This document shows positions 3,037 through 58,084 of a DNA stretch of 60,149 nt, one piece after another; within the stretch, counting starts at the first letter, position 1; the number at the start of each line of letters is the position of its first letter. The notes under the pieces were generated by a model. The model had not been told where the DNA came from and did no database searches. It saw only the letters and a list, made by a program, of their open reading frames with translations. The DNA is taken from IMG/VR virus record IMGVR_UViG_3300032162_000173, positions 1 to 60,149 of that record; one strand, 5' to 3'. The DNA is from a virus (taxonomy: Duplodnaviria > Caudoviricetes). A program made the translations under genes and the position numbers.

Positions 3037-4281
3037 ATGAGCAGAACGAACATTGAGTGGACTCATATACCAGGTACGCTGCCTGAAGTATGGAACCCTG
3101 TGACAGGGTGCAATAAAGTTAGCCAGGGATGCAAACATTGCTACGCTGAGACAATGCATAAAAGGCTGATGCATATAATGCCCTCGAAATACAACCGTCC
3201 GTTTTTGGAAGGCGCTGTTACTCACGAGGATATGCTGACTGTTCCGCTAACCTGGAAGAAGCCCAGAACTGTTTTTGTTAACAGTATGAGTGATTTGTTT
3301 CATCAGAATGTTCCTGATGAGTTCATTGATAAAGTTTATTCAGTAATGGGCTTATGTCAGCAACACACCTTTATTATACTAACGAAGAGGCCCGAAAGAA
3401 TGGCTCAATATTATGAAAGCCGAGATGATGCTTCAAATATGGAAGAAAGGGCAGAGATACTTGCTTGTACATATCCGGAGTTGGTTTATACAATGAATCA
3501 TTATAAACCGGAGAAAGACCAAACAATTTCTTTTCCAACAAACAATCTTTTGCCTCACATAAAACAGGCTGGATGGTATTCAGGAATAGGCTATATTAAC
3601 ATGGGTGGAGTGGAGGCGGAAAAAGAGCTTGAATTTATATATGAAGGTGAATGGCCACTCAAAAACGTTTGGACAGGTACCAGCGTTGAAGACCAAATGA
3701 CTGCAAACGAAAGAATCCCTTTTTTGCTGAAAGTTCCCTCTGCAGTTAGATTTCTTTCATGTGAGCCATTGTTGGGCCCCATAAACTTAAAAATTCAAAC
3801 CGGATGCGAGGAGGAACTCGACTCATTGGCCGGATTAGAAATTCCAACAGTTCAACATCGCTCAATTAAGCCGCGGGAAGTTAAAAAGATTGATTGGGTA
3901 ATTGCCGGTGGCGAAAGCGGCAACAAAGCAAGGCCGGTGCATCCTGATTGGGTGCGCTCTCTGCGTGATCAGTGTGCTGCTGCAGGTACTCCTTTCTTTT
4001 TTAAGCAGTGGGGTGAGTATTATACCAGGTGGCAGCATTTAGGCAATCATAAACCTGTTTTTAAAATGTATGAATCTTATCTGCAGTTCACTCAAAAGTT
4101 ATGGGTTCATGAAAGGGATAAGTGTGTAGATGCTGCCGGCAAAGAATGTAAAATCGGACAAGATTTTATGAATGCCACTTACCCAGTTGCTATAATGACT
4201 AAAGTCGGTAAACATAATTCCGGGCATTTGCTGGATGGAGAGGTGCATCATGAATTTCCCGAAGGAAAATTAAAAGCTTAG
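3037..4281 (+). CDS. Phage Gp37/Gp68 (DUF5131) family radical-SAM-like protein
   Basis: TNIEWT, WNPVTGCNKVSQGCKHCYA, VFVNSMSDLFH, FLSCEPLLG, WVIAGGESG and FFFKQWG motifs. Confidence 0.9.
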   Translation: MSRTNIEWTHIPGTLPEVWNPVTGCNKVSQGCKHCYAETMHKRLMHIMPSKYNRPFLEGAVTHEDMLTVPLTWKKPRTVFVNSMSDLFHQNVPDEFIDKVYSVMGLCQQHTFIILTKRPERMAQYYESRDDASNMEERAEILACTYPELVYTMNHYKPEKDQTISFPTNNLLPHIKQAGWYSGIGYINMGGVEAEKELEFIYEGEWPLKNVWTGTSVEDQMTANERIPFLLKVPSAVRFLSCEPLLGPINLKIQTGCEEELDSLAGLEIPTVQHRSIKPREVKKIDWVIAGGESGNKARPVHPDWVRSLRDQCAAAGTPFFFKQWGEYYTRWQHLGNHKPVFKMYESYLQFTQKLWVHERDKCVDAAGKECKIGQDFMNATYPVAIMTKVGKHNSGHLLDGEVHHEFPEGKLKA

Positions 4282-5073: not shown

Positions 5074-6024
5074 TTGACAAATCAGGCTACTATACCAAAC
5101 AGCAGCGCAGTACTGGAACTTAAAAATGTACCGGCCGGGCTAATTATGTACGCAGTACAGCAATGGACGCCATGCATGAAGTATGCAAAAAACAAAGCGG
5201 CCGGTCACAACACCAATACGTTTATCAGGGGCATATCTGTATGGCTGATACTAAAGAGCGAGACCACCTCGGGTAATATAAAAAAATACCGGGCGCAACT
5301 GCCTGAGCTTGCAGCGAAATGCAAAATGTCGGTGCGAACGATGGATAGATACATTGCATGGCTAAAGTGCGAACGCCTGGTACACACGGAAGGGAAAAAT
5401 CTTTTTGTACACAACTACGAAGCACTTAAAAAATACGGCATCAACACAAAAGATAGGATGCCAACCATTTATTATGACACAGAAAATAAAACAACCCTGG
5501 CCGAGATCATTGTCGCCATAGCTATTACGAAAATGAAGGAGCGGTGGATGCAGATGTACTGGAATAAGATCAACCAAAATCAGGATGAGTTTAAGGTTTT
5601 AAGCGACCTTCTTATATTCTTCAAAGCAGACGCCGGCAGGCTGCACGACCGGAACTACTTCCGCGAGTGCCACCTGGAGCTTATGCTGCGATTTTATAAG
5701 GAGGAAAAGCCTGGTCAGCGGGTGTACGATTTTCTCCATACACAAGTAGAAGCCAACCCCGACATTAACTGCATGGCAGCCACGTATGCAAAAAAGATGG
5801 GCTACAGCGCTGCCATGAGCTTTTGCCATCTGAAGTTTAAAATGATCCGGAATGGACTGATAAAGGCAGAAAAAGACCATATAGAAAGCGAATGCCGTTC
5901 GCGCAAGGATGAAAAAATGTTTCATCACCGGTATGTGAGGCAAACAAAGAGCACAATATGGTTTAGGTGCGACCAGATAACCGTACAAAACGAAGCGATT
6001 TTCGGAAAAAAAATCGCTGCTTAA
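5074..6024 (+). CDS. Putative replication initiator (HTH-containing)
   Basis: HTH-like ELAAKCKMSVRTMDRYIAWLK. Immediately followed by an origin-like palindrome and a DnaA box. Confidence 0.5.
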   Translation: MTNQATIPNSSAVLELKNVPAGLIMYAVQQWTPCMKYAKNKAAGHNTNTFIRGISVWLILKSETTSGNIKKYRAQLPELAAKCKMSVRTMDRYIAWLKCERLVHTEGKNLFVHNYEALKKYGINTKDRMPTIYYDTENKTTLAEIIVAIAITKMKERWMQMYWNKINQNQDEFKVLSDLLIFFKADAGRLHDRNYFRECHLELMLRFYKEEKPGQRVYDFLHTQVEANPDINCMAATYAKKMGYSAAMSFCHLKFKMIRNGLIKAEKDHIESECRSRKDEKMFHHRYVRQTKSTIWFRCDQITVQNEAIFGKKIAA

Positions 6025-6088
6025 ACACCTTTTGAAAAAAATGTTATATACGAGAAGCGGTTAAATATCATTTTAAACTCACTTATAC

Positions 6089-6164
6089 CACTTGTACAAG
6101 TTGTACAAACGTGTACAACTTGTACAAGTGCAGCGGTGAATAAAAAAAATAACCCTGTGGATAA
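6089..6164. other. Putative replication origin: perfect 19-bp inverted repeat plus DnaA box
   Basis: CACTTGTACAAGTTGTACA-aacg-TGTACAACTTGTACAAGTG at 6089-6130 contains four TGTACA units. TGTGGATAA (reverse complement of TTATCCACA) at 6156-6164. Confidence 0.55.
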
Positions 6165-6183
6165 CCTCAAAAACTACTGAAAA

Positions 6184-6582
6184 ATGTTGATAACCCAAAA
6201 CCAAAACAACTCAAATGTGCATATACCCAAAGACCACGAGCGGCTCACCGGCAATCATCTGACAACAAAAGGAAGACTGACCTGCAGGTTCGAGCTGTTT
6301 GTAAGATGGCCGGAAAGCTCCCGTCGAAAAATGAATCCGTTTAAGTACCGTGGAGACAGGTTGGGTCTGATGGAAGCAGATAAAATGATAGCCTGGCTGG
6401 TGAAGTTTTTCATTAAGGATCACCATGACTGGCTGCTTGCTGAGCTATGGGATAATACGAAGCAGCTTAATGATCCGGAGAGAATTGTACTTAGCTGGAA
6501 GCGCGGAATAATTGACACCAACCGGCTAAAAGATTATGAGCCTATGCTTCAGACAGTAGCCATTCCGGACTGGATGAAATAA
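6184..6582 (+). CDS. Hypothetical protein
   Basis: ORF in the early operon. Confidence 0.6.
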   Translation: MLITQNQNNSNVHIPKDHERLTGNHLTTKGRLTCRFELFVRWPESSRRKMNPFKYRGDRLGLMEADKMIAWLVKFFIKDHHDWLLAELWDNTKQLNDPERIVLSWKRGIIDTNRLKDYEPMLQTVAIPDWMK

Positions 6583-6650
6583 GGCCCCCGACTTCGACAC
6601 ACAGCGGAGGCATTAAAAACAACATTAAGACCAATTTCAAAGCTAAAATT

Positions 6651-7415
6651 ATGCAATTTAAAACAAATGGCCTTCATCATACTATGAGCACAGTAATGGT
6701 TTTTCAAACCGATGAATATGCCAGATTTAAAACCATCACCGGTAACCGGCAGCTAAATGATGCTAAAATTAAAAGAATAATCAGTGAAATTGAAAGCGGT
6801 GTGGATCTGCTCCAGTACTACCCGATACAGGTGGTGGAAAAAGATAACCGGCTTGATATTGTTGATGGCCAACACAGGTTTTACATATGCCGAAAACTAA
6901 AAAAGCAAGTCTATTACATTGTTTTGAAGAGAGAAATATCACTGCCTGACATAGCTAAAGTAAACAGTAATGTGGAGAAATGGAAAGGAGCTGATTTTAT
7001 AAACTGCTACACTCAGCTTGATAATGAAAACTATAGACAGCTCCAGGTAATAATGGATAAATACCCGGTACCGATGACAACAGCGATAAGCTTGCTGCAA
7101 TCGGGGGTCGTAAATGATGGCGGAGGTACCAAAAATGACTTTGAAAGAGGATCATTTGTTATAAAGAAATATGACCTGACGATGCAGGTGTTAAACTACT
7201 GCAGCCAGTTTGATTATGAAAGGAAGTTCAATAGACAATTTATAAAAGCGGTTTTAAAAATAATTGAAAGCAATAAGGTAAAAATGGAAGATGTCATTGC
7301 AAAAGTTGCAGAGTATCCTGATGACCTCGTAGCACAGCACGAATGGAAGGATTACCTTACTAACCTGGAAAATATTGTAAATAAAGGCAAAAAAAACAGG
7401 GTAGTTATTTATTAA
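6651..7415 (+). CDS. ParB/Srx N-terminal-domain protein
   Basis: GNRQLN...YPIQVV...IVDGQHRF motif. Confidence 0.75.
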   Translation: MQFKTNGLHHTMSTVMVFQTDEYARFKTITGNRQLNDAKIKRIISEIESGVDLLQYYPIQVVEKDNRLDIVDGQHRFYICRKLKKQVYYIVLKREISLPDIAKVNSNVEKWKGADFINCYTQLDNENYRQLQVIMDKYPVPMTTAISLLQSGVVNDGGGTKNDFERGSFVIKKYDLTMQVLNYCSQFDYERKFNRQFIKAVLKIIESNKVKMEDVIAKVAEYPDDLVAQHEWKDYLTNLENIVNKGKKNRVVIY

Positions 7416-7440
7416 AAACATATCGCTTAATAGCTTACAT

Positions 7441-7809
7441 ATGCTAAACCTTCCTCTTACACGCGATGAGGCACGATTGATACAAAAAAACTTTCTGCCT
7501 TATATGCTGATGCTGATAAAGGCCAAAGCAGCCGGTGCAGAAACAGGATCAAATAAACATCTCAGGTATAAAATTATTTTTTCGCTTATCTGTGATGTAA
7601 GAGGAATGTTTGTAAAAAAGCTGGCAAGCGGTGCCAAGAAGCTGAAGTTTAAGCTGAGTGATGCACATGGCATTGCACTTTACGTTTTCCTGATGCGGCA
7701 GCCAATAGCTGCTGAAGAAGTATATGCTCATATGTTGCGTCAAAAGATGTGCGATCGGCTGTATCAGCAGTTAATTGATCCGCTTGTGGAAGATCAGGAA
7801 TTAGACTAA
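7441..7809 (+). CDS. Hypothetical protein
   Basis: ORF in the early operon. Confidence 0.55.
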   Translation: MLNLPLTRDEARLIQKNFLPYMLMLIKAKAAGAETGSNKHLRYKIIFSLICDVRGMFVKKLASGAKKLKFKLSDAHGIALYVFLMRQPIAAEEVYAHMLRQKMCDRLYQQLIDPLVEDQELD

Positions 7810-7814
7810 AACAT

Positions 7815-8177
7815 GTGGAGGCAAATAAAGTAAACGATATGTCAGAAAGAACAGCACTTAATGAAATTGAAAAGAAGATTGTAAAAGCCTTAGACACTGT
7901 TACCTTTTTACCAGCTTCTTACGATAAGCGTTTTTATCGCTCCTTGGCTGCTGATGCTATATATACCGAAAAGCAAAAGCGTTACCTGCATTTCATCTTC
8001 AATAAGTACAGGCGACAAATAAAGAACTATCAGGAGTTAGCTTTTGAACTACAGCCAGAAAGGTTCGAGGTAAAAGTAAAGTTTGAAAGAACTTTATTCA
8101 GCATGGACGGCTCTGCTGAAGTTGAATTTAAAGACACTTTTAAGCCGTCAAAATTAGTTAGCGGGGAAGGTCAGTAG
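7815..8177 (+). CDS. Hypothetical protein
   Basis: ORF whose 3' end runs into a GTTAGCGG...CCGCTAAC mini-element. Confidence 0.55.
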   Translation: MEANKVNDMSERTALNEIEKKIVKALDTVTFLPASYDKRFYRSLAADAIYTEKQKRYLHFIFNKYRRQIKNYQELAFELQPERFEVKVKFERTLFSMDGSAEVEFKDTFKPSKLVSGEGQ

Positions 8178-8213
8178 CCATTGCCGCTAACAATATTATA
8201 AAATGAAGAAAAT

Positions 8214-8636
8214 ATGAAACGTAATACGGCCACTAATTTCGGCGAATTGCGGCAGGGAGACAGGTTTTACTTTGCCGGCGACAGTAAAAAGATTGCCTAC
8301 CAGGTAACGGATGAGAAATTTTTTAAAAAATCTTCTTATAATTTAATCAGCGACCAGGGCATATCTGCATGGCCGTATGATAAAGAAGCTCCGAACGATA
8401 AGGGTGTAGTTTTTCTGCGGCACACCATTCCGCAGTTGGGTGAGGAGTGTGTATTAAAAGATTTGTCAGACGGAGATGTTTTTCACCTTCCGGATAATAT
8501 AATAGATGAATTCAGGCTTGATAAGAAACCGGGTGCGTGGGTTGTAACCGGGATAAATACTGATAATACGCCCGGAGATATCTCTGCTGAAACGCTTGTT
8601 GTTTTTGTCAGAAAACAGAAGGAGGCGAGGCTATGA
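8214..8636 (+). CDS. Hypothetical protein with an internal duplication
   Basis: FGELRQGDRFYF...VVFLR is repeated as LKDLSDGDVFHL...VVFVR. Confidence 0.6.
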   Translation: MKRNTATNFGELRQGDRFYFAGDSKKIAYQVTDEKFFKKSSYNLISDQGISAWPYDKEAPNDKGVVFLRHTIPQLGEECVLKDLSDGDVFHLPDNIIDEFRLDKKPGAWVVTGINTDNTPGDISAETLVVFVRKQKEARL

Positions 8637-8836
8637 CACGAAAAGACAAAATAACCTGTTTTATTTTTTCGATACTAATAATTGCCGGTTATTTTATTGG
8701 CGGTTATAGTGGTGGATTACTCTCCGGAGCAGGCCTGGCTACGCTCTGCCTTTACTTGGTTGGAAAAAAAGTTGCTGCAAAAGCTATCGCCAGAATTGAC
8801 AAGAGAGTGAAGGATATTTTAATTGATGAACAATAA
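8633..8836 (+). CDS. Small membrane protein
   Basis: Two hydrophobic segments. Start overlaps the upstream stop (ATGA). Confidence 0.55.
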   Translation: MTRKDKITCFIFSILIIAGYFIGGYSGGLLSGAGLATLCLYLVGKKVAAKAIARIDKRVKDILIDEQ

Positions 8837-8844
8837 ATAATAGG

Positions 8845-9327
8845 GTGTTGAATAAAATTGAAAATGATGAGCATTTAGGTTATAGCCCATTTTTTACCAA
8901 ATCCAATATTGGTAGCAGTTCTGGTCTAATCGTAATTGGAGATGTTCACGGCAAGGTAGATGCTTATTGTAAAATATTACAAAAGCTAAATGGCAAAAGC
9001 TGTTCTATACAAATAGGTGATTTTGGTTTTAAAAAGCAACACGAATGGCACTTAAAAAATATTGATTATACAAAGCATCAAATAAACTTTGGCAACCACG
9101 ATGATTACACTTTCTTACATAAGCCACATAGTCTTAATGATTGGTCTTACGATTATGAAAGCAAAGTAATGACTGTAAGAGGTGCTTATTCAATCGATAT
9201 GCCTTATAGAACTGTAAATATTGATTGGTGGGCAAATGAACAATTGAACTATGCAGAAATGCAGCAAGCCGTTGATTTTTACTCTTTTAACAAACCAAGC
9301 CGAATAAAGAAAAAATGTACAAGATAA
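8845..9327 (+). pseudogene. Calcineurin-like metallophosphoesterase, C-terminally truncated
   Basis: GDVHG, IGDFG and GNHD motifs are present, but the later His motifs are missing. The 3' end is fused to the right half of an array spacer. Confidence 0.65.
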
Positions 9328-9403
9328 CAACGTCCAGCCCCGCTTTTGCCTATGCATTGTTGGCAGAAGTAACGGGCAAAGACGGAAGTTCTTTAAAATA
9401 AAT

Positions 9404-9679
9404 GATAGTTGCTTGACGGTTATTAGACGCTTGTTTGGACGGCGGTTCGATTCCGCCCACCTCCACACTTTGCAGCATGGCTGTGAGTATTCGCCATGAA
9501 GCCCCTTGAGTAAGGGCTTCAATTTGGGGGTGTACCGGTTTTGACAGCAAGTAGTAGATAGCAATAGATTATCAGATAAACAACAAAAGGCAAGTTAATC
9601 GCCTTTGGTCGCCCTGCGGTGAAAGCTGCGGCGTAGTGCCAACGAGATTGAGCAACCTGCGAAAGTGGTTGCTTTTTTT
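9404..9679 (+). ncRNA. ssrA: Circularly permuted (two-piece) tmRNA
   Basis: The T-arm GGCGG-TTCGATT-CCGCC and acceptor 3' strand CACCTCC-A (9441-9465) lie upstream of the 5' end GGGGGTG-TACCGGTTTTGAC (9526). G3-U70 pair present. Tag frame 9589-9636 reads GKLIAFGRPAVKAAA*, followed by a terminator. Confidence 0.88.
9651..9679 (+). terminator. Intrinsic terminator after the tmRNA coding piece
   Basis: AGCAACC-tgcgaaagt-GGTTGCT followed by a T run. Confidence 0.7.
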
Positions 9680-9875
9680 AAACGCTGGTAGTTATTTCTG
9701 CCAACGTTTAGCGGTTTATGCTGTTTTGGAATTTGAAAAACTTCCGCTCCGAAAACATACGGAGCCAAATATAAAAACTAAAGTACAGCATGCGTTACGT
9801 CCGCCAAAATAGCATAAACCGCCGTGTTAGTGGCATGTGGCGGCAAATAAACAAAACACTTATAAATTTAAAGAT

Positions 9876-10235
9876 ATGGCACACCCTTGTTTTAGCTGCG
9901 GCAGTGAATGTTATTGTCATGGCGATATTGATGATGTAATTGTAAGTAAAACGCCTTCTAATTGCGATGGATGTGGATGCGATGATTCTGATGATAGAGG
10001 CGAATGGGATGATAATGATTCTGATTTTGGTTGGTGTTCTGAATGTGATGGTCACGATGCGTGTAGAGACTTTGGGTGTGCAATAAAATTGGGACATAGC
10101 ACACAACGGCGTTCCAGTGTTGCCGATGGTGTAGAACTGGCAGCACGAAGCAAAACTGAAATTATTAGCTGCCGTGATAGGTGCAGCTTCACTATTAACG
10201 TCCCGCTACACTATTGGCAACACATTGTTGTGTGA
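9876..10235 (+). CDS. Cys/Asp-rich cassette protein (putative metal-binding), reading through into the spacer
   Basis: CFSCGSECYCH, CDGCGC and CSECDGHDAC. ATG at 9876 follows an A-rich leader. No stop codon before the cassette end at 10107. Confidence 0.5.
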   Translation: MAHPCFSCGSECYCHGDIDDVIVSKTPSNCDGCGCDDSDDRGEWDDNDSDFGWCSECDGHDACRDFGCAIKLGHSTQRRSSVADGVELAARSKTEIISCRDRCSFTINVPLHYWQHIVV

Positions 10236-10275
10236 CGGTTTACGGGCTATTAATTAACCAATTTAAATTATAATC

Positions 10276-10620
10276 ATGTTTACAAAAGAGAAAGAAGAAA
10301 TTAGAATTTGCACCTGTCACGATGAAGAAGTTCCATTGATTTGGACGTTTGCTTTTAATGGTTCTGAATACTGGTGTCCCGCCTGTGGGTTCAATGGCGG
10401 TATGTTTGGGTCAGGAACAAAAGTTGAACTGACAAAAGACTTAAAAAAGTCTGCTAAGGAATGGGAAAAGAAAGCTGAAATATTTTTAGATGCAAAGTCA
10501 ACTTTGGTTTGCCATAGTAAAGAATTTGAAGGCAAAACTGTTTTAAGAAAAGACTTGCCAATAGAGGAAATTGAAAGGTGTAAAAAGATTGTGTCTGAAT
10601 GGGTTTATGAAATTGAATGA
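10276..10620 (+). CDS. Zn-ribbon-like cassette protein
   Basis: CTCH...WCPACG. Fills cassette 10227-10642. Confidence 0.65.
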   Translation: MFTKEKEEIRICTCHDEEVPLIWTFAFNGSEYWCPACGFNGGMFGSGTKVELTKDLKKSAKEWEKKAEIFLDAKSTLVCHSKEFEGKTVLRKDLPIEEIERCKKIVSEWVYEIE

Positions 10621-10792
10621 TGGTAGTAAACTGTCACACAACGGTTCGGGTATTTATGCAGGGCGGGAATTAATGCTCGTCAGCCCAATGCCTGTACCGC
10701 TGTTGAATAAAGATAAAAAGATTAATTAACCCCCGTCAGCCCGACTTGCATAAATACCATTGTTAGCGGCTGTACGGGCAGATTTAAGAGCA

Positions 10793-11074
10793 ATGACAAA
10801 AATGAAATCAATGGCAGCTTTCCTTGCCTTAGCTGCACTGTCTGGTCAAAGTTTTATGGCTTCTGGTCGTGGCGAAGAATTAGAAACATTCACGCCAATT
10901 CCAAAGGAGCCACCAATTCCAAAAGGGTGCAAGGAGTATTTTTTCAATAAGGATGGAGATTTTTCAAACAGGCACATGAGGCGTGATGAACTTGTTTTTA
11001 AATGCGTTGCTTCAAACGATAAAGTAGCAAAAAAGAAGTTTCAAAAATGGCTGAACTCTCAAGATGTAGTATAG
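10793..11074 (+). CDS. Hypothetical cassette protein
   Basis: Fills cassette 10762-11082. The stop codon lies inside the right terminal repeat. Confidence 0.6.
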   Translation: MTKMKSMAAFLALAALSGQSFMASGRGEELETFTPIPKEPPIPKGCKEYFFNKDGDFSNRHMRRDELVFKCVASNDKVAKKKFQKWLNSQDVV

Positions 11075-11160
11075 CCGCTAACGTGATAGCAGCTTTATGT
11101 AGTTGCGATTTTTAGTTCCCGAAGTTTGATTGAAAATATAATGATTATAAAAGCAATGAT

Positions 11161-11544
11161 ATGAAGAATGGTATTATTCGAGAGTTGATAAACTTTGCTA
11201 AAGTTGGGCAAGAAAAAGCCGACAAAGATGCGGAGACTAAGAATATAAATGGACTGTATTATTTAGGAAAGGCTTCGGCTTTTTCTGATATTATTCTTAA
11301 AGCTGAATTGCTTTTTGGTACACCGTTGAATAATGATATTCAGCCGCAATTACATAAAACTGCCTGTTATACGCCGTTGGTGGAATTTAAAAACCGAAGG
11401 CTCAAATTACAGATGTCGTTGCGTGATGTTACCAAAGTTACGGGTGTATCTGCTGCTACAATTAGCAGGATAGAGATGGGTAAAGAAGCAGAGTACAGTA
11501 ATGTTCAAAAGCTGGATAGTTATTATGCCACCAATGGCGTATAA
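11161..11544 (+). CDS. XRE-family HTH protein; N-terminal half encoded in a spacer loop
   Basis: C-terminal RRLKLQMSLRDVTKVTGVSAATISRIEMG is an XRE HTH. The ORF crosses the spacer/cassette junction at 11366. Confidence 0.75.
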   Translation: MKNGIIRELINFAKVGQEKADKDAETKNINGLYYLGKASAFSDIILKAELLFGTPLNNDIQPQLHKTACYTPLVEFKNRRLKLQMSLRDVTKVTGVSAATISRIEMGKEAEYSNVQKLDSYYATNGV

Positions 11545-11680
11545 CGTAAAGCATTTGTGAAGGCACGGAAATCAAGGCTTGTCAGCCGAGAACCTGCACA
11601 GGTGATTAATTAATAACCAAAAGTACAGCCGAGTTCCGTCCGCCGTGCTTTTATAAATGCACTTGTTGTGCGAAGTTTTT

Positions 11681-12028
11681 ATGTCAGATAAGTTTAAATT
11701 AAAAAGAATAAAACAATGCGACAAATGTCCATGGAAAGAAAGTACAGACCCTTACGAAATTCCTGATGGTTATTGCGAAATAAAACATAAAAATCTTTCA
11801 AATACAATAGCTAATCCGAATGAGTTAAGGTTGGGCGGCACAATGAATATAATGGCTTGTCATCATTCTAATGGCAACGACCAAATGTATTGTGTCGGTT
11901 GGTTAAATAACCAATTAGGTGTCGGCAATAATATTAGGTTACGAATACAAATGATGCGGTGCGAAAATATTGGTAAATTAAAAATTGTCGGAGAACAACA
12001 CGAACGATTTGAAGATACGTTGCCCTAA
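11681..12028 (+). CDS. Cys-containing cassette protein (DUF6283-like)
   Basis: QCDKCPWK...MACH...YCVGWL. Fills cassette 11665-12041. Confidence 0.55.
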   Translation: MSDKFKLKRIKQCDKCPWKESTDPYEIPDGYCEIKHKNLSNTIANPNELRLGGTMNIMACHHSNGNDQMYCVGWLNNQLGVGNNIRLRIQMMRCENIGKLKIVGEQHERFEDTLP

Positions 12029-12061
12029 AATTTCGCACAACTCGTTAATATACGATATAAG

Positions 12062-12286
12062 ATGATACAACTAATTGAAAGACAAAAGGGTAAATTCTGC
12101 ATGATAATACATGGAGTGAACTGCGTCTTTATGCCAATGGAATTGTTTGTAAATAATCAGCTTTTGCCATTGGCCAAAAAAATAAAAGGTTCAACCCTGG
12201 GTTGGTATATTAAAAGGATGTTTGTTAGCTATAACCAAATAAAAAAAACAATTACCATTGGCCCTGACACTGCCTTTTATGAATAA
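12062..12286 (+). CDS. Hypothetical protein
   Basis: ORF directly after the array. Confidence 0.5.
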   Translation: MIQLIERQKGKFCMIIHGVNCVFMPMELFVNNQLLPLAKKIKGSTLGWYIKRMFVSYNQIKKTITIGPDTAFYE

Positions 12287-12361
12287 ATTTGGCTGGCCTT
12301 TTATGTCATTATTTCAATAGATGCTTTTAATGTAAATTTGGGTATCCTATTGAAAAACATT

Positions 12362-12877
12362 ATGAAGGGTTACATACCGGTGGAGATACCGACTAAGCGG
12401 TATATTAAAGCATACATACATTTCAAGCTGGGCGAAAAAGCTTTTATGAATACGGAATGTAATATTGGTTCTAAATTGTATGACGTATTGAATCATAAGA
12501 CCAATGAGGAAAAAAGCCGTTTTTCTAACGTAAGATATAATACCACGCTGAGGTTGTATGTAAGCTACCATACCTTTACCCACAGAGGCGCTTTTCTTAA
12601 CGAAACAAACATAAAAAATTTTAATCTTTATGTAGAAGGTATTATTAAAGACCGATTTCGCCTGTATATGGATTTTTACATTTCTATTCTTCCCAGCTTC
12701 GAGGCTAACCTGCCAGAGGTGCGTAAAAACCTGGGTATTGATATAGAAGACTGGAGTGACGACAGTATGAGAAAAGATTACTACAGGTACCGGTTGTATA
12801 AAGGGAAACCTCTCTTATATGAAAAAAACAATGCCGCAACTGTCCCATCGGTAATTAATCAGAATTTTGGTTTTTAG
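12362..12877 (+). CDS. Hypothetical DNA-binding protein, candidate late-transcription activator
   Basis: Last gene before the structural module. Basic C-terminal MRKDYYRYR helix. Function inferred from position only. Confidence 0.4.
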   Translation: MKGYIPVEIPTKRYIKAYIHFKLGEKAFMNTECNIGSKLYDVLNHKTNEEKSRFSNVRYNTTLRLYVSYHTFTHRGAFLNETNIKNFNLYVEGIIKDRFRLYMDFYISILPSFEANLPEVRKNLGIDIEDWSDDSMRKDYYRYRLYKGKPLLYEKNNAATVPSVINQNFGF

Positions 12878-12909
12878 GGCCAAAAAGAATGCCGCAACTG
12901 TCCCATCGG
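12830..12909 (+). repeat. 22-bp direct repeat AATGCCGCAACTGTCCCATCGG
   Basis: Identical copies at 12830-12851 and 12888-12909. Confidence 0.85.
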
Positions 12910-12944
12910 AGAATTGCGTGCCGGATAGTCTTTAGCTTCGCTGA

Positions 12945-13415
12945 ATGAAACCAGCTTACTCAGATATTTTCCTGAAACCTGGTGCCGTTAACCACGGCAT
13001 TGTAAGTGTAAAAGTTGTCCCGCGTGAATGGCTGTCTGCTGATCCTGTCATTGACTTCAATACCGGTAAGGTAATAGCCGCAGTTTCTCTTGCTGCCGGC
13101 AGAAGCTGGATATTGCTCGATTTTGCAGCAACTACTTATAAGTACGACGAAAAGCTAAAAAGTACCCGTCCGGGTTCTTTTTACGAAATTTCCCTCTCCG
13201 GATCATTTAATAATTATGATTCTTTAATACAACAGGTAACTGACAGCCTGCGCTACCACGAGTTAGTCGCCATTGTGATGGATCGCAACAAAAGAATAAA
13301 GCTTGCCGGCACCAAAGAAGCCGGTTTTGGCGTTTCTCCCGCTAATAATATATACTCCGGGCACATAGATTTGTTGATGGAAAGTGAATTTCCTGCACCT
13401 TTTTATGAATTTTAG
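12945..13415 (+). CDS. Hypothetical virion-associated protein
   Basis: Beta-rich ORF at the start of the structural module. Confidence 0.5.
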   Translation: MKPAYSDIFLKPGAVNHGIVSVKVVPREWLSADPVIDFNTGKVIAAVSLAAGRSWILLDFAATTYKYDEKLKSTRPGSFYEISLSGSFNNYDSLIQQVTDSLRYHELVAIVMDRNKRIKLAGTKEAGFGVSPANNIYSGHIDLLMESEFPAPFYEF

Positions 13416-13468
13416 AACTGTAAAATACCTTCTGCCTTCAGGCTAAGAAGGAGTTATCCCCGTTTTTC

Positions 13469-13503
13469 GTCCTTTTACAACCTATAATCTCATTGCATTT
13501 TCG
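13469..13503 (+). promoter_or_regulatory. Putative late promoter (GTCCTTT with a -7-like octamer 27 nt downstream)
   Basis: GTCCTTT at 13469 and CATTTTCG at 13496. Same geometry at seven other sites. Confidence 0.65.
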
Positions 13504-13529
13504 TAGCCTAAAGAACTACGGGCACTTCA

Positions 13530-14450
13530 ATGAGCATACAAACAGCATCTGATATTCTTCGCGGGAGGTTGTTAATAGAGCCATCTTTTGCCGCCGGACA
13601 GTTGCCTGTGATTATGCAAATGATAAAAGACCAGGTAACGGACAGTAAACTACTCTACAATGTAAGATCACAACGGGCTCCCGAAACCATTTTAAACATT
13701 CCCATCCGGAAGGTATTTGCTGCTGCAGAGCAGTTTGATGTTTTTTCAGTAACGCCATATACATCAGTTGACCGCCTTGGCTACGACTCTATAGTTATCA
13801 TAAATATTATCGGCCCTGTAATGAAATACGGCGGGTGGTACTCGTGGGGCACTGTTGAGCTAAATGACCTGGTGATACGGATGGCTAAAAGCGATAAGGT
13901 AGAAGGTATCATTCTGAATATAGACAGCCCCGGCGGGCAGGCTGCAGGTACCGGTGATTTTGCACAAACGATACGGGATGCCGGCAGAATAAAACCGGTA
14001 TTGGCTGTGGTGCAGGATGGTTACGCTGCGAGCGCCGCTATGTGGATCGCCAGCGCTGCGCTGGAGATATATGTAACACAACCTACAGACCAGGTCGGCA
14101 GCATTGGCGCGTACAATACTCTTTATGACATCTACGGCTACCTGGAGAAACAAGGACTGAACGTAAGAGACATCTACGCGCCGCAAAGTGTTGACAAAAA
14201 CCAGGACTTTATTAAAGCGCTGGAAGGCGACGACTCGCTGATAAAAGAAGATCTGAAATTTTTAGTGGACAATTTTATCGGCACGGTCAAAACAAACCGC
14301 GGCCAGCGGATCAGCATGAGTGGTGATGAGCCCTTTACAGGTAAAATGTACAATGCTGCAGACGCTAAAAAAATGGGCCTTATAGACGGAATAAAACCAA
14401 TGTCGGGCGTAGTAAAGAGAATAGAACAATTAATCGCATTAAGAGCATAA
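13530..14450 (+). CDS. S49 (SppA/ClpP-like) prohead protease
   Basis: LNIDSPGGQ, AASAAMWIAS and VGSIG motifs. Confidence 0.9.
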   Translation: MSIQTASDILRGRLLIEPSFAAGQLPVIMQMIKDQVTDSKLLYNVRSQRAPETILNIPIRKVFAAAEQFDVFSVTPYTSVDRLGYDSIVIINIIGPVMKYGGWYSWGTVELNDLVIRMAKSDKVEGIILNIDSPGGQAAGTGDFAQTIRDAGRIKPVLAVVQDGYAASAAMWIASAALEIYVTQPTDQVGSIGAYNTLYDIYGYLEKQGLNVRDIYAPQSVDKNQDFIKALEGDDSLIKEDLKFLVDNFIGTVKTNRGQRISMSGDEPFTGKMYNAADAKKMGLIDGIKPMSGVVKRIEQLIALRA

Positions 14451-14463
14451 ACATTTTATATCT

Positions 14464-14943
14464 ATGAAATATCCACAAATAGCCGCAGCATTGGGATGGA
14501 CAGAAACTCCTGACATGACTGAAGGCATTTTTTTGCAGCCGGTAGAAGCCGGAAAAATCAATTCGGACCTGGAAGCAGGCTCCGCAGCACAACAGGCAGT
14601 GATTGACCTGGCAGAAGCAAAAGGCACGATAACCGAACGGGATAATACAATCTCGGCGCTGAATACTACCATAGGTGATATGACAACTTCCGCCGATACT
14701 GCTGCTCAAGCCGCAACAAATACGATTGCCCGGCGTGACCAGCGCATTACTGAACTGGAAGCACAGGTAACTGAGCTTGGTAAAGGAAGCAGCGGTAATG
14801 GTACCACATTAACAACAGTGGCAGACGAGGCTAAGCCTGAAACGGTAAACGAAGCAGGTGTAGTAGGCTATGACAGTCCGGATCATCCCGGTAACCAAAT
14901 GGTTGATCAATATACACGTAAAAAAGCGGTAAAAAAAGCTTAA
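14464..14943 (+). CDS. Putative capsid scaffolding protein
   Basis: Ala/Thr-rich coiled coil located between the protease and capsid genes. Confidence 0.55.
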   Translation: MKYPQIAAALGWTETPDMTEGIFLQPVEAGKINSDLEAGSAAQQAVIDLAEAKGTITERDNTISALNTTIGDMTTSADTAAQAATNTIARRDQRITELEAQVTELGKGSSGNGTTLTTVADEAKPETVNEAGVVGYDSPDHPGNQMVDQYTRKKAVKKA

Positions 14944-37954: not shown

Positions 37955-38584
37955 ATGAGTAGTGGAGCCAACATAGCATCCATTAACCGGTCAAAGTTTT
38001 ATGAACATGCCCGTAATAATATTTTTGCCGGTAAGCTCAAAGTTTCCCAGGTACGGGGCATGGAAGCAGACCTCGACGAATGGGAGAAGCACGACTACAA
38101 AGACGGGCGCTGGCTTGCTTATATGCTGGCTACCGAGTATCACGAGACCTGCGGCGCCATGCAGCCCGTTAGTGAGATTGGAAGAGGCAAAGGGCGCGAC
38201 TACGGCAAAAAATTGAAAATGGGCGGCGGCCCCGGCAAGCGATTACCATACACGCAGCCCAACCAATATTATTTTGGCAGGGGAAAAGTGCAGGTTACCT
38301 GGTACGAAAATTACCAGCTCATGGGCAGGTTATTAGGTTTGGATCTGCTCAACAATCCAACTCTTGCATTAGAGATGGATGTATCGGTTAAAATTATGTT
38401 TGAAGGGATGCTGCAAGCCTCGTCATCATTCGGTGATTTTACCGGAAGATCTCTGGAGCATTATTTTAACAAGAATACCGAAGACTGGTTCAACGCCAGG
38501 CGAATTATTAATGGCCTGGATTGCGCAGCAAAAATCGCCAAAAATGCAAAAATATTCTACGCTGGGCTGCAAATAGCAGCATAG
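37955..38584 (+). CDS. Endolysin, GH19/chitinase-like lysozyme fold
   Basis: LAYMLAT.YHET, YFGRGKVQVTWYENY and ARRIING motifs. Confidence 0.88.
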   Translation: MSSGANIASINRSKFYEHARNNIFAGKLKVSQVRGMEADLDEWEKHDYKDGRWLAYMLATEYHETCGAMQPVSEIGRGKGRDYGKKLKMGGGPGKRLPYTQPNQYYFGRGKVQVTWYENYQLMGRLLGLDLLNNPTLALEMDVSVKIMFEGMLQASSSFGDFTGRSLEHYFNKNTEDWFNARRIINGLDCAAKIAKNAKIFYAGLQIAA

Positions 38585-39035
38585 CAAAACCAATAAATAA
38601 ATTGATAAGTATAAAATAAGGCAATTCTATTGCGCAAATCAGTAAAGAATGCAAAAAAATATTACATGCTGCCATAAGTATCGCAGCATGACAAACGCTG
38701 TGTTTCATAGCAGTTGATTTTGGTTTAGCCCGTTTGTCTACATCCGGGCTTTTTTTTATTTATCTTGCTAACATGAAAAAAAATATTCTTTCTGCAATTT
38801 TATTAGTATTAGTAGTTGTCAATTCGATATTTTTATTTATCAATATCCACAAATACGATTATGCAAAAGAAAATACAGTAACTATTAATGCCACTGAAGA
38901 TATAGCTATGCCCGATTTATTACAAGCGCAAAACAGGGTATGACGGTATTCAGCTAATAGTTGAAAAAGGAAAATTAGAAGCCAATTTCTGCTATCCAAA
39001 TAAATGTGAGTTTGATAATTTAAACTATAAAACAA

Positions 39036-57843: not shown

Positions 57844-57938
57844 ACAGGAGTGGCGGAATTGGTCAAACGCAAAGGGTTAATGGGAAATCTAACGAGACTA
57901 CCGCTCTAAAGCTGCAGGTTCGATTCCTGCCTCCTGTA
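57844..57938 (+). tRNA. tRNA-like element with a non-canonical anticodon arm (pseudo-tRNA or insertion-containing tRNA)
   Basis: Acceptor ACAGGAG/CTCCTGT-A, D-arm GCG-GAATTGGTCAAA-CGC and T-arm GCAGG-TTCGATT-CCTGC are intact. No canonical 7-nt anticodon loop. Confidence 0.6.
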
Positions 57939-58012
57939 CGGTTTAGTTTTCATAGGGTATTGGATTTTTTGAATAAGAAAAATCCGGGCTTGTATATACT
58001 TGCCCGGAACAT

Positions 58013-58084
58013 AGCGGGATAGAGCAGCGGCAGCTCGTTGGGCTCATAACCCAGAGGTCGGAGGTTCGAATCCTTCTCCCGCCA
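58013..58084 (+). tRNA. tRNA-fMet (CAT, initiator type)
   Basis: Anticodon arm TTGGG-CTCATAA-CCCAG with three G-C pairs, 1:72 mismatch (A/C), T-arm GGAGG-TTCGAAT-CCTTC. CCA is not encoded. Confidence 0.9.

What the first reader, a model, noticed from the sequence alone, without database searches (positions are those of the whole stretch)
8908..12041. Phage-borne integron-like cassette array with cassette-specific terminal inverted repeats and fixed-length stem-loop spacers, without IntI
Seen in sequence: each cassette starts GTT and ends AAC, and its two ends are complementary to each other rather than to neighbours. Pairs: GTTGGCAGAAGTAAC (9359) / GTTATTTCTGCCAAC (ends 9705); GTTGTGTGACGGTTTAC (10227) / GTAAACTGTCACACAAC (10642); GTTAGCGGCTGTAC (10762) / GTATAGCCGCTAAC (11082); GTTATACGCCGTTGGTGG (11366) / CCACCAATGGCGTATAAC (11545); GTTGTGCGAAGTTTT (11665) / AAAATTTCGCACAAC (12041). 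Cassette 9826-10107 has a degenerate pair. Spacers are 120, 119, 119, 283 and 119 bp. Each has a different 18-19 bp inner stem, for example GCGGTTTATGCTGTTTTGG/CCAAAATAGCATAAACCGC and GGTATTTATGCAGGGCGGG/CCCGACTTGCATAAATACC. Most have a CGTC(C/A)GC-like motif before the right arm. Structure and length are conserved while sequence is not. Established: integron attC sites use AAC...GTT cores and are recognised as folded single-stranded DNA by IntI. Inference: this is a cassette capture and shuffling system in a phage early region, with longer outer stems than classical attC sites and a recombinase encoded outside this window.
Basis: partly seen in the sequence, partly recalled or inferred. Interest (0 to 1): 0.92.

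Follow-up and report, generated by a model that had tools for sequence, protein, structure and literature searches.

The report
Integron-like cassette array in phage
A Bacteroidota prophage carries six small gene cassettes separated by folded DNA sites that look and behave like integron recombination sites, and relatives show these sites belong to a widespread system that uses a Xer-like recombinase, not the classical integron integrase.

Summary
Window 9295-12041 holds one truncated and five complete AAC-N119/120(283)-GTT hairpin sites. They separate six cassettes, and the 14-18 nt ends of each cassette pair with each other.

The window is a 99% complete provirus. It has no tyrosine recombinase and no HUH gene.

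Relatives explain the array:
- One relative has an empty site.
- Others carry such arrays ending about 40-100 nt before a Xer-like tyrosine recombinase that lacks the IntI-specific domain.
- A covariance model of the site finds 150 copies. 129 of them lie upstream of that recombinase on its strand, and 37 of 44 recombinase loci have at least one.
- 18 of 23 pairs covary, and one G.T pair is almost invariant.
- Cassette ends pair with their own partner, not with the neighbour: 4.8 against 2.2 of 6 positions.
- Window cassettes 1, 3 and 6 recur in other arrays. The DNA alignments for cassettes 1 and 3 break exactly at GTT and AAC.

The site also occurs in 78 of 151 sampled Bacteroidota genomes, next to the same recombinase clade.

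Verdict: an orphan phage array of an integron-like system. Seven searches found no description of it. Recombination itself is inferred.

The parts
8633..8836 (+). Conserved small membrane-protein gene. It marks the left border of the variable slot.
   Evidence: Homologues precede the slot in L002 (7810-7995) and L003 (5545-5748).
8845..9327 (+). Metallophosphatase-like ORF (160 aa). It lies left of the array and is not bounded by the repeats.
   Evidence: Weak Metallophos_2 match. No left arm for site S0 lies inside it. No homologue in the other loci.
9295..9361 (+). S0: a truncated site. Only the right half is present (CGTCCAGCC motif, right arm, TGTT).
   Evidence: Right-anchored comparison with the other sites. 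No partner arm found.
9359..9705 (+). Cassette 1, with ends GTTGGCAGAAGTAAC / GTTATTTCTGCCAAC. It carries no ORF but an RNA gene.
   Evidence: I10. The same cassette is 85% identical in L027 as the last cassette before the recombinase, and the homology is bounded by TGTT and AACGTTT.
9408..9636 (+). Permuted (two-piece) tmRNA gene inside cassette 1.
   Evidence: Rfam RF04321, 60.3 bits against a gathering score of 47. ARAGORN did not call it.
9703..9828 (+). Site S1: AAC, 120 nt, GTT, with a 19-bp inner stem.
   Evidence: (I3). R1 model 71.7 bits.
9826..10107 (+). Cassette 2, encoding a Cys-rich small ORF from 9876. Its right end is degenerate and the ORF runs on through S2 to 10235.
10105..10229 (+). 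Site S2 (119 nt).
   Evidence: (I7). R1 41.5 bits.
10227..10642 (+). Cassette 3 (ORF 10276-10620, 114 aa, no Pfam family).
   Evidence: I8. The protein is 88% identical in L116. There the DNA homology runs from TTGTT to AACG, inside an array with nine R1 matches.
10640..10764 (+). Site S3 (119 nt).
   Evidence: (I5). R1 84.9 bits.
10762..11082 (+). Cassette 4. Its small ORF ends at 11074 and looks like a signal-peptide protein (my reading of the translation). No Pfam family.
   Evidence: (I12).
11080..11368 (+). Site S4, with a long loop (283 nt). ORF 11161-11544 starts inside the loop.
   Evidence: (I6). Similar long-loop sites with an ORF start occur in L021 and L011.
11366..11545 (+). Cassette 5, holding the HTH_3 part of ORF 11161-11544.
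   Evidence: (I2).
11543..11667 (+). Site S5 (119 nt).
   Evidence: R1 68.7 bits.
11665..12041 (+). Cassette 6 (DUF6283 protein, 11681-12028). It is the last cassette and ends in AAC with no site after it.
   Evidence: (I1). A 71% identical protein sits in L101 between two R1 sites.
12042..12358 (+). The place where relatives carry the recombinase gene. Here there is only ORF 12062-12286 (74 aa).
   Evidence: No recombinase homologue. The homologue of the 74-aa ORF lies about 3.3 kb downstream of the recombinase in L028.
12359..12877 (+). Conserved gene that forms the right border of the variable slot.
   Evidence: Homologues in L001-L023.

Best explanation
Window 9295-12041 is an orphan, recombinase-less array of gene cassettes. 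It belongs to an integron-like site-specific recombination system of Bacteroidota and their phages.

Anatomy. Each recombination site is an imperfect hairpin of about 130 nt. It has a closing helix YAACG/TGTTR, a small asymmetric internal loop, an inner stem of about 18 bp and a variable loop. Each cassette begins GTT and ends AAC, and its first and last 14-15 nt are complementary to each other.

Proposed mechanism. A cassette plus one site is excised as a circle. In the circle the cassette's two ends extend the hairpin into a long perfect stem. The circle is then re-inserted at an AAC next to the recombinase gene, or at another site.

The enzyme is a dedicated clade of Xer-like tyrosine recombinases without the IntI-specific domain. 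In related phages its gene follows the last cassette. For this prophage it would have to be supplied in trans by the host chromosome or another phage.

What is shown:
- the anatomy of the sites and cassettes;
- the covariation of the stems;
- the fixed polarity of arrays relative to the recombinase gene;
- re-use of cassettes in other arrays, with DNA homology breaking exactly at GTT and AAC where aligned (cassettes 1 and 3);
- the empty site.

What is inferred:
- that this recombinase catalyses the exchange;
- that the + strand of the window, the strand on which the non-standard pairs are G.T, is the one that folds;
- that the crossover lies at the AAC side.
For: (1) Anatomy in the window.

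(2) Slot occupancy differs between relatives. It is empty in L002. In L003 it holds one site, one methylase cassette and a recombinase gene 39 nt after the AAC. L021 has three or more cassettes followed by the recombinase. L011 has a different methylase cassette before a homologous AAC-proximal region and recombinase.

(3) Of 61 viral loci fetched with the recombinase, 44 are non-duplicate and have at least 700 nt upstream. 37 of these 44 have at least one model hit upstream on the recombinase strand. Of the 150 best hits, 138 lie on that strand. Of the 143 in recombinase-bearing loci, 129 lie upstream on that strand (300,526 bases upstream in all) and only 3 downstream on it (405,749 bases downstream).

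(4) Covariation. In the 35 seed sites, 18 of 23 pairs have compensatory changes. 94.6% of cells pair, against 64.7% after shuffling and 33-49% with slid partners. The covariation score is 0.715 against 0.174. The figures are the same for 150 sites (94.3% against 63.2%). One inner G.T pair is present in 145 of 146 sites, and the G.T beside AAC/GTT in 144 of 148.

(5) Cassette ends pair with their own partner. At variable positions 5-10 there are 4.79 of 6 Watson-Crick pairs (n=89). Across the same site with the neighbour there are 2.23 (n=128). Shuffled partners give 2.17, with a maximum of 2.43 in 200 shuffles.

(6) Exact modular breakpoints:
- window cassette 1 against L027;
- window cassette 3 against L116;
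- window cassette 6 occurs as a cassette in L101;
- an identical cassette end (174 nt, 100%) is followed by the recombinase region in L028 but by a site in L033, and the two diverge right after AAC;
- homology between recombinase-proximal regions starts within about 3 nt of the last AAC.

(7) Similar sites in different loci share the downstream flank more than the upstream flank. Mean identity is 9.0 against 5.8 of 15 nt, and 5 against 0 of 11 pairs reach 10 or more. This fits a unit of 'site + following cassette' and a crossover at the AAC side.

(8) Site polarity follows the recombinase, not transcription. The longest cassette ORF is on the site strand in 91 of 98 viral cassettes but on the opposite strand in 20 of 29 chromosomal ones.

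(9) Reciprocal test. In all 5 array-rich Bacteroidota genomes found with the site model, a recombinase of this clade (254-268 bits) is present. In 4 of them (G221, G113, G178, G140) a copy lies about 0.7-12 kb beyond the 3' end of an array. In G111 the copy lies about 6 kb from a minus-strand array.

(10) L026 has this recombinase and also a large serine recombinase. The window has only the serine one. The tyrosine enzyme is therefore not needed as the prophage integrase.
Against: - No recombination product was seen. The two public runs that hold the region are contig sets and show no joint or circle. One is probably the source of the window.
- The window itself lacks the recombinase. It has a truncated first site and one degenerate cassette end, so it may be a fossil.
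- The mobile unit is not clean. The site upstream of cassette 1 is not specifically like the one upstream of its copy in L027. One site is shared at 94% identity between L026 and L075 with both flanks unrelated. Breakpoints therefore occur on both sides of a site.
- Folding energies do not separate the two strands. The + strand gives -24.4, -24.9, -18.0 and -18.1 kcal/mol; the - strand gives -21.9, -23.9, -20.1 and -18.6.
- 7 of 44 recombinase loci have no model hit.
- In chromosomes the recombinase gene is on the opposite strand to its position in phages, so the gene's own orientation is not fixed.
- The seed sites were picked by a scan that required a stem, and the larger alignment is fitted to the model. 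Both inflate the percentage paired.
Confidence: 0.75

Rival explanations
1. The hairpins act in RNA. The array is one transcript in which each ORF is closed by a stem and separated by 119-nt hairpins, serving for example RNase III processing, termination or mRNA stability. On this view the recombinase next door is only the phage integrase.
For: In the window and in viral contigs the sites lie on the coding strand (91 of 98 cassettes). The non-standard pairs are G.T, that is G.U in RNA. Bartlau et al. (PMC8776804, passages read) read the Leef and Ingeline integrases as markers of a temperate life style.
Against: - In chromosomal arrays the longest ORF is antisense to the site in 20 of 29 cassettes, while the polarity towards the recombinase is kept.
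- An RNA role does not explain the exact re-use of cassettes and sites at GTT/AAC, nor the invariant AAC/GTT.
- L026 and the window have a serine recombinase available for integration.
Confidence: 0.07
2. The sites are real recombination sites, but they are used by the host's housekeeping Xer recombinases or by classical IntI enzymes, not by the adjacent Xer-like clade. The adjacency would reflect co-mobility only.
For: - Many arrays, the window's included, have no dedicated recombinase nearby.
- G045 and G049 have arrays, but only matches of about 125-127 bits that look like housekeeping Xer.
- G111 also has a true IntI at 430 bits.
- Qi et al. report that IntI1 recombined a predicted attC of Polaribacter phage P12002L (PMC9892861, section 3.4 read). 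My model hits that phage in the methylase region.
Against: - Adjacency and polarity hold in 37 of 44 viral loci, and a copy of the recombinase lies near an array in all 5 array-rich genomes checked.
- The conserved recombinase-proximal sequence starts at the last AAC, as expected for a cognate insertion site.
- By IntegronFinder, classical integrons are rare in Bacteroidetes (preprint 10.1101/2022.02.28.482270, passages read).
Confidence: 0.08
3. Cassette shuffling happens through homologous or illegitimate recombination between repeated regulatory hairpins. This is what I recall being described for promoter/stem-loop cassettes in T4-type phages. No dedicated site-specific enzyme would be involved.
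For: The array sits in a plastic region of small accessory genes between the replication and structural modules.
Against: - The sites differ in sequence (mean column identity 55%), which is too little for homologous exchange.
- Stems covary instead of being conserved.
- Breakpoints are exact to the base at AAC/GTT.
- There is a strong link to one recombinase clade.
Confidence: 0.04
4. The units are single-strand transposable elements moved by an HUH/Y1 enzyme, of the IS200/IS605 or REP/RAYT type.
For: The units have hairpin ends and conserved short flanking triplets.
Against: There is no Y1_Tnp match in the window. No such gene was noticed beside the arrays I read. The neighbouring enzyme is consistently a tyrosine recombinase. 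I did not run an HUH search on the other loci.
Confidence: 0.02

Closest known systems
Integrons: IntI, attI and attC cassette arrays, including clusters of attC sites without an integrase (CALIN)
   Same: - Arrays of promoter-poor small cassettes, each bounded by GTT...AAC.
- Sites are imperfect hairpins with a conserved AAC/GTT closing helix, an unpaired central part, a covarying inner stem and a variable loop.
- The start of a cassette is complementary to the far end of the same cassette, the classical signature of a crossover beside the core triplet.
- A tyrosine recombinase gene sits at one fixed end of the array, and conserved sequence starts at the last triplet.
- Orphan arrays exist.
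- Chromosomal cassettes can carry defence genes, for example a restriction-modification system in L094.
   Different: - The recombinase lacks the IntI-specific additional domain and scores below the IntI cut-offs. TIGR02249 gives 122-203 bits against a cut-off of 265, always in two pieces. About 43 residues present in the solved IntI (2a3v) are absent.
- The outer stem is 14-15 bp and the inner stem about 18 bp, with fixed G.T pairs instead of known extrahelical bases.
- In phages the cassette ORFs lie on the same strand as the site model and the recombinase.
- In chromosomes the recombinase gene is inverted.
CALINs reported in phage genomes (Qi et al. 2023, PMC9892861; abstract, section 3.4 and passages read)
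   Same: These are phage-borne arrays of predicted attC sites without an integrase, often around DNA methylase genes. One example is Polaribacter phage P12002L, a Bacteroidota phage. My model hits P12002L at 30005-30059, 32220-32284, 32794-32928, 38032-38093, 38876-38939 and 39119-39248 on the gene strand. The authors showed that IntI1 can recombine one P12002L site.
   Different: The paper treats such sites as strays of classical integrons and names no cognate recombinase.
Xer recombinases acting on folded single-stranded DNA, as in CTX-phi integration. This is recalled; it is mentioned in the discussion of Escudero et al. 2016, PMC4792948 (passages read).
   Same: It is a Xer-type tyrosine recombinase without an I2-like domain that uses a DNA hairpin as substrate. 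This makes the proposed chemistry plausible. The recombinase here is closest to XerA/Xer-like structures (140 bits), just ahead of IntI (128 bits).
   Different: CTX-phi integrates a whole phage genome at the chromosomal dif site using host XerCD. There are no cassette arrays, no AAC/GTT cores and no dedicated enzyme.
Xer-site-bounded modules on Acinetobacter plasmids (pdif modules). This is recalled; only a search listing of a review was seen.
   Same: Discrete accessory-gene modules are bounded by inverted recombinase sites and are found in different contexts.
   Different: Those sites are short duplex dif-like sequences that are the same for all modules. There is no module-specific end pairing and there are no 119-nt hairpins.

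Membership tests
Integron (IntI type) | A tyrosine recombinase gene beside the array | tested here: not met
   The window has no PF00589 match and no homologue of the relatives' recombinase. Relatives do have one.
Integron (IntI type) | The IntI-specific additional domain around patch III in the recombinase | tested here: not met
   The recombinases of the relatives align to TIGR02249 and to the solved IntI 2a3v in two pieces. Profile positions 172-198 face chain residues 177-246, so about 43 residues are missing.
Integron (IntI type) | Score above the curated IntI model cut-off (TIGR02249, 265 bits) | tested here: not met
   122-203 bits for four recombinases of the clade. As a positive contrast, a true IntI in G111 scores 430 bits.
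attC-type recombination site | An imperfect hairpin closed by conserved AAC...GTT triplets, with covarying inner pairs and a variable loop | tested here: met
   23 pairs, 18 with compensatory changes. 94-95% of cells pair against 63-65% after shuffling. Loop length varies from about 20 to about 250 nt.
attC-type recombination site | The first bases of a cassette are complementary to the inverse core at the end of the same cassette (the crossover signature) | tested here: met
   4.79 of 6 pairs with the own partner, 2.23 with the neighbour, 2.17 with shuffled partners.
attC-type recombination site | Extrahelical bases that set strand choice | tested here: inconclusive
   There are fixed non-standard pairs (G.T in 145 of 146 and 144 of 148 sites; an unpaired cell at a third position in 57 of 148) and an asymmetric internal loop. 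No clear bulged bases were seen, and folding energy does not separate the strands.
attC-type recombination site | Detected by the IntegronFinder/HattCI attC models | not testable with these tools
   Those models are not available here. Rfam 15 has no matching family, even at E up to 10.
CALIN (cluster of attC sites lacking an integrase; definition recalled) | Two or more sites in a row with no integron integrase nearby | tested here: met
   Five complete sites and one half site, with no tyrosine recombinase in the 99% complete provirus. This holds only if the sites are accepted as attC-like.
Integron (IntI type) | An attI site and a Pc promoter beside the integrase | tested here: inconclusive
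   Conserved recombinase-proximal sequence starts at the last AAC, which fits an insertion site. No promoter analysis was done.
Xer/dif systems | A short duplex dif-like core with two inverted arms and a 6-8 bp centre | not tested
   I only inspected the junctions by eye. No dif model was applied.
IS200/IS605 or REP/RAYT elements | An HUH (Y1) transposase | tested here: not met
   No PF01797 match in the window. The other loci were not searched.
T4-type promoter/stem-loop cassettes (recalled) | Near-identical repeated sequence that allows homologous exchange | tested here: not met
   Mean column identity among 35 sites is 55%. Stems covary instead of being conserved.

The most novel reading that the evidence does not exclude
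Bacteroidota and their phages run a second, so far undescribed lineage of integrons. About half of the sampled genomes of the phylum, and many phages, carry arrays of folded AAC...GTT sites. These are served by a dedicated Xer-like tyrosine recombinase that never acquired the IntI 'additional domain'. If so, hairpin-based cassette capture does not need that domain. Phages would use the system to swap accessory genes such as methylases, regulators and even a tmRNA, and 'integrases' such as that of Polaribacter phage Leef_1 would be cassette recombinases and not lysogeny enzymes.
Probability: 0.5. Interest if true: 0.92.

Novelty: new variant of a known kind. Interest (0 to 1): 0.86.

Why it matters
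Integrons are defined by IntI and its extra domain, which is held to be what lets a tyrosine recombinase use folded single-stranded attC sites. IntegronFinder surveys report them as rare in Bacteroidetes.

This would be a cassette system with the same logic but a plain Xer-like enzyme. It was found in 78 of 151 sampled genomes of the phylum and in dozens of viral contigs. If it is real, several things follow:
- The question of how hairpin recombination evolved from Xer becomes directly testable (Escudero et al. 2016 discuss this step).
- It would reveal a large hidden pool of mobile cassettes, including restriction-modification genes in chromosomes and methylases, regulators and a tmRNA in phages.
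- It would change how 'integrase' genes in flavobacterial phages are read as signs of lysogeny.
- Cultured material already exists for experiments: Polaribacter phage Leef_1 and its host.

Tried and rejected
- Left arm for the truncated first site. Nothing above chance: 13.5 against a shuffled mean of 13.0.
- Public reads. One search gave two contig-only runs, one of them the likely source. There were no joints, circles or variants. A 218-nt low-depth contig leaves the window sequence at 9363, just after the GTT, but it has 4 mismatches and probably comes from another phage. This counts neither for nor against.
- Near-identical phages. megablast of 6000-14500 against 50,697 phage records found no match. 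The metagenome scan with the flanking protein gave one 1.2-kb contig. The scan with ORF 8214-8636 gave nothing. L001 is not syntenic upstream.
- Rfam. No family matches the sites, either at the gathering threshold or at E up to 10.
- Strand choice from folding energy. Not decisive.
- Co-inheritance of the upstream site with cassette 1. Not seen.
- Cellulophaga phage Ingeline_1 (recombinase 32% identical). My scan found no convincing site upstream, and the model gave no hit in L086 at E up to 0.01.
- Literature. Seven searches turned up no description of this recombinase-plus-array system. The library lacks most subscription journals, so this is not proof that none is in print.
- IntegronFinder and HattCI could not be run.

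Full report
**Observation.**
- The repeat finder returns all five cassette-end pairs at the stated coordinates (15-26 nt, 77-94% complementary) and four of the five inner stems (18-19 nt, 89-95%).
- My scan for AAC, a short offset, a stem, a loop, the stem's partner and GTT finds five places in the whole 60,149 bases, on either strand. They are 9703-9828, 10105-10229, 10640-10764, 11080-11368 and 11543-11667, with 120, 119, 119, 283 and 119 nt between the triplets.
- A sixth element just before 9359 is only the right half of a site. No partner arm exists for it above chance. The array therefore starts near 9295, not at 8908.
- The array ends at the AAC of 12039-12041 with no site behind it.
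- In all five good pairs the eleventh base is G on the left and T on the right.

**Context.**
- The window is a whole IMG/VR record classed as a provirus and estimated 99% complete.
- It encodes a large serine recombinase (584-2128), a DUF5131 protein and an S49 protease.
- It has no tyrosine recombinase and no Y1/HUH transposase.
- Relatives of the flanking gene 12359-12877 are found in viral contigs and in MAGs labelled Chitinophagaceae, Chitinophagales, Segetibacter and Bacteroidota.

**Cassette contents**.
- Cassette 1: a permuted tmRNA.
- Cassette 2: a Cys-rich peptide whose frame runs on through site S2.
- Cassette 3: a 114-aa protein of no family.
- Cassette 4: a small protein with what looks like a signal peptide.
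- Cassette 5: an HTH domain whose ORF starts inside the long loop of site S4.
- Cassette 6: a DUF6283 protein.

**The slot in relatives.**
- L002: the small membrane-protein gene is followed within a few bases by the conserved gene, so the slot is empty.
- L003: the same slot holds an ORF ending in AAC, one 119-nt site, and one cassette with a C5 methylase bounded by GTTCTATGCTGGGG / CCCCATAGCATAGAAC. A 297-aa tyrosine recombinase gene on the same strand follows 39 nt after the AAC.
- L011: a homologous recombinase (51% identical in the alignment) and a homologous AAC-proximal region, but a different cassette, an N6-methylase-like ORF by my reading.
- L021 (a Segetibacter MAG): at least three cassettes and then the recombinase.

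**The recombinase.**
- It has Phage_integrase and Phage_int_SAM_4 domains.
- Arg134, His224, Arg227, His250 and Tyr259 (L003 numbering) are invariant in the three-sequence alignment. That these are the catalytic residues is my reading from knowledge of the family.
- The best NCBIfam models are archaeal XerA (174-216 bits, cut-off 220), XerC/D, and the integron integrase model TIGR02249 (122-203 bits, cut-off 265). TIGR02249 always matches in two pieces.
- Against solved structures a profile of the three proteins scores 140 bits on XerA/Xer-like chains. It scores 128 bits on the Vibrio integron integrase 2a3v, again in two pieces. Profile positions 172-198 face chain residues 177-246, so about 43 residues of IntI have no counterpart. 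This is the region of the IntI-specific additional domain.
- Database relatives (211 clusters at E 1e-40 or lower) are called XerD-like or hypothetical.

**A family of arrays.** A scan of viral contigs with the recombinase alignment returned 61 loci.
- My scan found AAC...GTT hairpins of mostly 107-124 nt upstream of the recombinase in most loci that have enough upstream DNA. The cassettes between them have complementary ends of 14-15 nt.
- I aligned 35 such sites: 3 from the window and 32 from 20 other loci.
- RNAalifold predicts a 5-bp closing helix (YAACG with TGTTR) and an 18-bp inner stem. 18 of the 23 pairs show compensatory changes.
- On this alignment 94.6% of cells pair, against 64.7% after shuffling partners and 33-49% when partners are slid. 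The covariation score is 0.715 against 0.174.
- The covariance model R1 built from the alignment found 166 matches at E 0.01 or lower in 1.15 Mb of held sequence. These include the fourth short window site, which was not a seed.
- Of the best 150 matches, 138 are on the recombinase strand. Of the 143 in recombinase-bearing loci, 129 are upstream of the gene on its strand and 3 are downstream on it, although more downstream sequence was searched (405,749 against 300,526 bases).
- 37 of 44 non-duplicate loci with at least 700 nt upstream have at least one match. The seven without are L067, L051, L055, L080, L079, L081 and L082. L079, L081 and L082 have only 26-29% identical recombinases.
- On the 150-site alignment the same statistics hold (94.3% against 63.2%). 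One inner pair is G.T in 145 of 146 sites, and the pair beside the triplets is G.T in 144 of 148.
- Caveat: the seeds were chosen by a scan that required a stem, and the large alignment is fitted to the model. The percentage paired is therefore inflated. The position-specific compensatory changes and the fixed G.T pairs are not produced by that selection.

**Ends belong to cassettes.** I compared the first 16 nt of each of 89 cassettes lying between consecutive model hits with the last 16 nt of the same cassette.
- At the variable positions 5-10, 4.79 of 6 are Watson-Crick pairs.
- The two ends that face each other across one site give 2.23 (n=128).
- Shuffled partners give 2.17, and at most 2.43 in 200 shuffles.
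- Position 11 is G.T in 74% of cassettes.

It is the same signature that I recall being used to place the crossover in classical integrons.

**Modules move.**
- Window cassette 1 is 85% identical to L027 4800-5163, where it is the last cassette before the recombinase. The alignment starts at TGTT and ends at AACGTTT.
- Window cassette 3 encodes a protein 88% identical to one in L116, inside an array with nine R1 matches. The DNA homology runs from TTGTT to AACG and the flanking sites differ.
- A 71% identical DUF6283 protein in L101 sits between two model hits. Fourteen other homologues in viral contigs have no site nearby, so ordinary phage genes become cassettes.
- L028 and L033 share 174 identical bases at the end of a cassette and diverge right after AAC. 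L028 continues into the recombinase-proximal region and L033 into a site and further cassettes.
- Homology between recombinase-proximal regions of different arrays begins within about 3 nt of the last AAC.
- Sites can also be shared without their flanks. L026 and L075 are 94% identical from AAC|G to GTTA|.
- Among 11 pairs of similar sites from different loci, the 15 nt downstream are more alike than the 15 nt upstream. The means are 9.0 and 5.8, and five pairs against none reach 10 or more. This fits a usual unit of 'site plus following cassette' and a crossover at the AAC side.
- (the upstream site of cassette 1 is not co-inherited) and one search show that breakpoints also occur at the GTT side.

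**Polarity and comparison with integrons.**
- Read on the strand of the model, every array runs site-cassette-site-cassette, ends in AAC, and has the recombinase beyond that end.
- As I recall it, this is the order seen when a classical integron is read on its recombinogenic bottom strand.
- In viral contigs the longest ORF of a cassette is on the model strand in 91 of 98 cases. In the chromosomal arrays I fetched it is on the other strand in 20 of 29.
- Site polarity thus follows the recombinase end and not the direction of transcription. This argues for a DNA-level role.
- The fixed G.T pairs would be A.C mismatches on the other strand, which suggests that the model strand (the window's + strand) is the one that folds. 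DNA folding energies of the four short window sites do not separate the strands, so this point stays an inference.

**Host genomes.**
- The model matches at E 1e-6 or lower in 65 of 101 genomes sampled from the family of the Segetibacter MAG, and in 78 of 151 sampled from its phylum. The matches often form same-strand clusters.
- In all five array-rich genomes that I then searched, a recombinase of this clade (254-268 bits) is present, again split on TIGR02249. In four of them (G221, G113, G178, G140) a copy lies about 0.7-12 kb beyond the 3' end of an array. In G111 the copy lies about 6 kb from a minus-strand array. In the four cases where I could compare strands (G221, G113, G140, G111) the gene is on the strand opposite to the sites.
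- G111 also has a true IntI elsewhere (430 bits).
- In another set of five genomes, three had a clade member above 230 bits. Only one of these was near a site, and G045 and G049 had arrays but only Xer-like matches of about 125-127 bits.
- One chromosomal cassette, next to rluD in L094, holds an HTH gene, a C5 methylase and an ORF on the other strand that I take to be the restriction enzyme. The functions are my reading of the translations.

**Cultured phages and the literature.**
- Polaribacter phage Leef_1 has a recombinase 33% identical to that of L003. It is preceded by four model hits and by cassettes with the same kind of ends.
- Its authors took the integrase as a sign of a temperate life style (PMC8776804, passages read).
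- Polaribacter phage P12002L has no such recombinase above E 1e-20 but has seven model hits at E 0.001 or lower, six on its early-gene strand and several beside methylase genes.
- Qi et al. (PMC9892861; abstract, section 3.4 and passages read) reported 17 CALINs in phages, P12002L among them, and showed that IntI1 recombines one of its predicted attC sites. I could not see their coordinates because the supplements are closed.
- The IntegronFinder 2.0 preprint (passages read) reports only a few integrons in Bacteroidetes.
- Ghaly et al. (preprint 10.1101/2022.02.06.479319, passages read) restate that IntIs are defined by the additional domain.
- Escudero et al. (PMC4792948, passages read) state that no XerCD-family recombinase is known with an I2-like domain. 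They discuss a Xer-like ancestor acting on single-stranded phage DNA.
- Seven searches found no paper describing this recombinase-plus-array system.

**Mechanism proposed.** A cassette and one site form a circle. In the circle the cassette's two ends close around the site into one long hairpin, made of the 14-15-bp outer stem, the internal loop and the 18-bp inner stem. This mimics a two-arm recombinase core site. The Xer-like enzyme exchanges one strand at the AAC with the AAC next to its own gene or with another site, and replication resolves the junction.
- Shown: the anatomy, the covariation, the polarity, the exact breakpoints, the empty slot, and the link to the enzyme clade.
- Inferred: catalysis by this enzyme, single-strand folding, the strand used, the crossover point, and activity of the window's orphan array in trans.

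**Verdict.** The window holds an orphan phage array of an integron-like system whose recombinase is not an IntI. I file it as a new variant of a known kind. The main risks are two. The system may already be known under another name, or simply be counted as CALINs. And no recombination product has been observed.

Noticed in passing
window 9408-9636: A permuted (two-piece) tmRNA gene (Rfam RF04321, 60.3 bits; beta_tmRNA 51 bits, below threshold) sits inside a mobile cassette of a Bacteroidota prophage. ARAGORN does not call it. The same cassette occurs in L027. I did not work out a tag reading frame.
   Followed up: partly
window 57844-57939 and 58013-58085: Two tRNA genes lie near the right end. 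One is tRNA-Met. The other is 96 nt long and ARAGORN reports a four-base anticodon (atgg); Rfam tRNA gives it 49.3 bits.
   Followed up: no
window 3037-4281: The DUF5131 protein has 414 aa, but the Pfam profile has 243 positions matched end to end (residues 4-408). The protein therefore carries about 160 extra residues inside the domain.
   Followed up: no
L002 7645-7740; L003 5390-5500; L021 8520-8660: Clusters of direct and inverted TGGAACA repeats lie just upstream of the small membrane-protein gene in three relatives. They look like iterons or operator sites. I did not look for them in the window.
   Followed up: no
L070 2512-5342 (- strand) and 5670-7741 (+ strand): Two arrays of opposite polarity meet at a large palindrome (5333-5680, arms paired over at least 26 nt) upstream of the recombinase.
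   Followed up: no
L034 1679-1793 and 3938-4025 against L039 6422-6535 and 7420-7506: Two cassettes share about 90 nt at each end (92% identical) but differ in length, at 2.3 kb and about 1 kb. Cargo therefore seems to be replaced inside a conserved cassette frame. L075 and L076 also have 'empty' cassettes of about 105-160 nt.
   Followed up: partly
L094 8231-10751 (genome G073, contig 7): A chromosomal cassette between two sites, next to rluD, holds an HTH gene, a C5 DNA methylase and a convergent ORF that is probably the restriction enzyme.
   Followed up: partly
L003 5079-5180: A sequence of about 50 nt is duplicated in tandem inside an HNH-like ORF and splits it into two frames. This may be an assembly artefact.
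   Followed up: no
genome G111, contig 5, 61111-62052: A classical integron integrase (TIGR02249, 430 bits) is present in a Bacteroidota genome that also has the Xer-like recombinase and its arrays on another contig.
   Followed up: no
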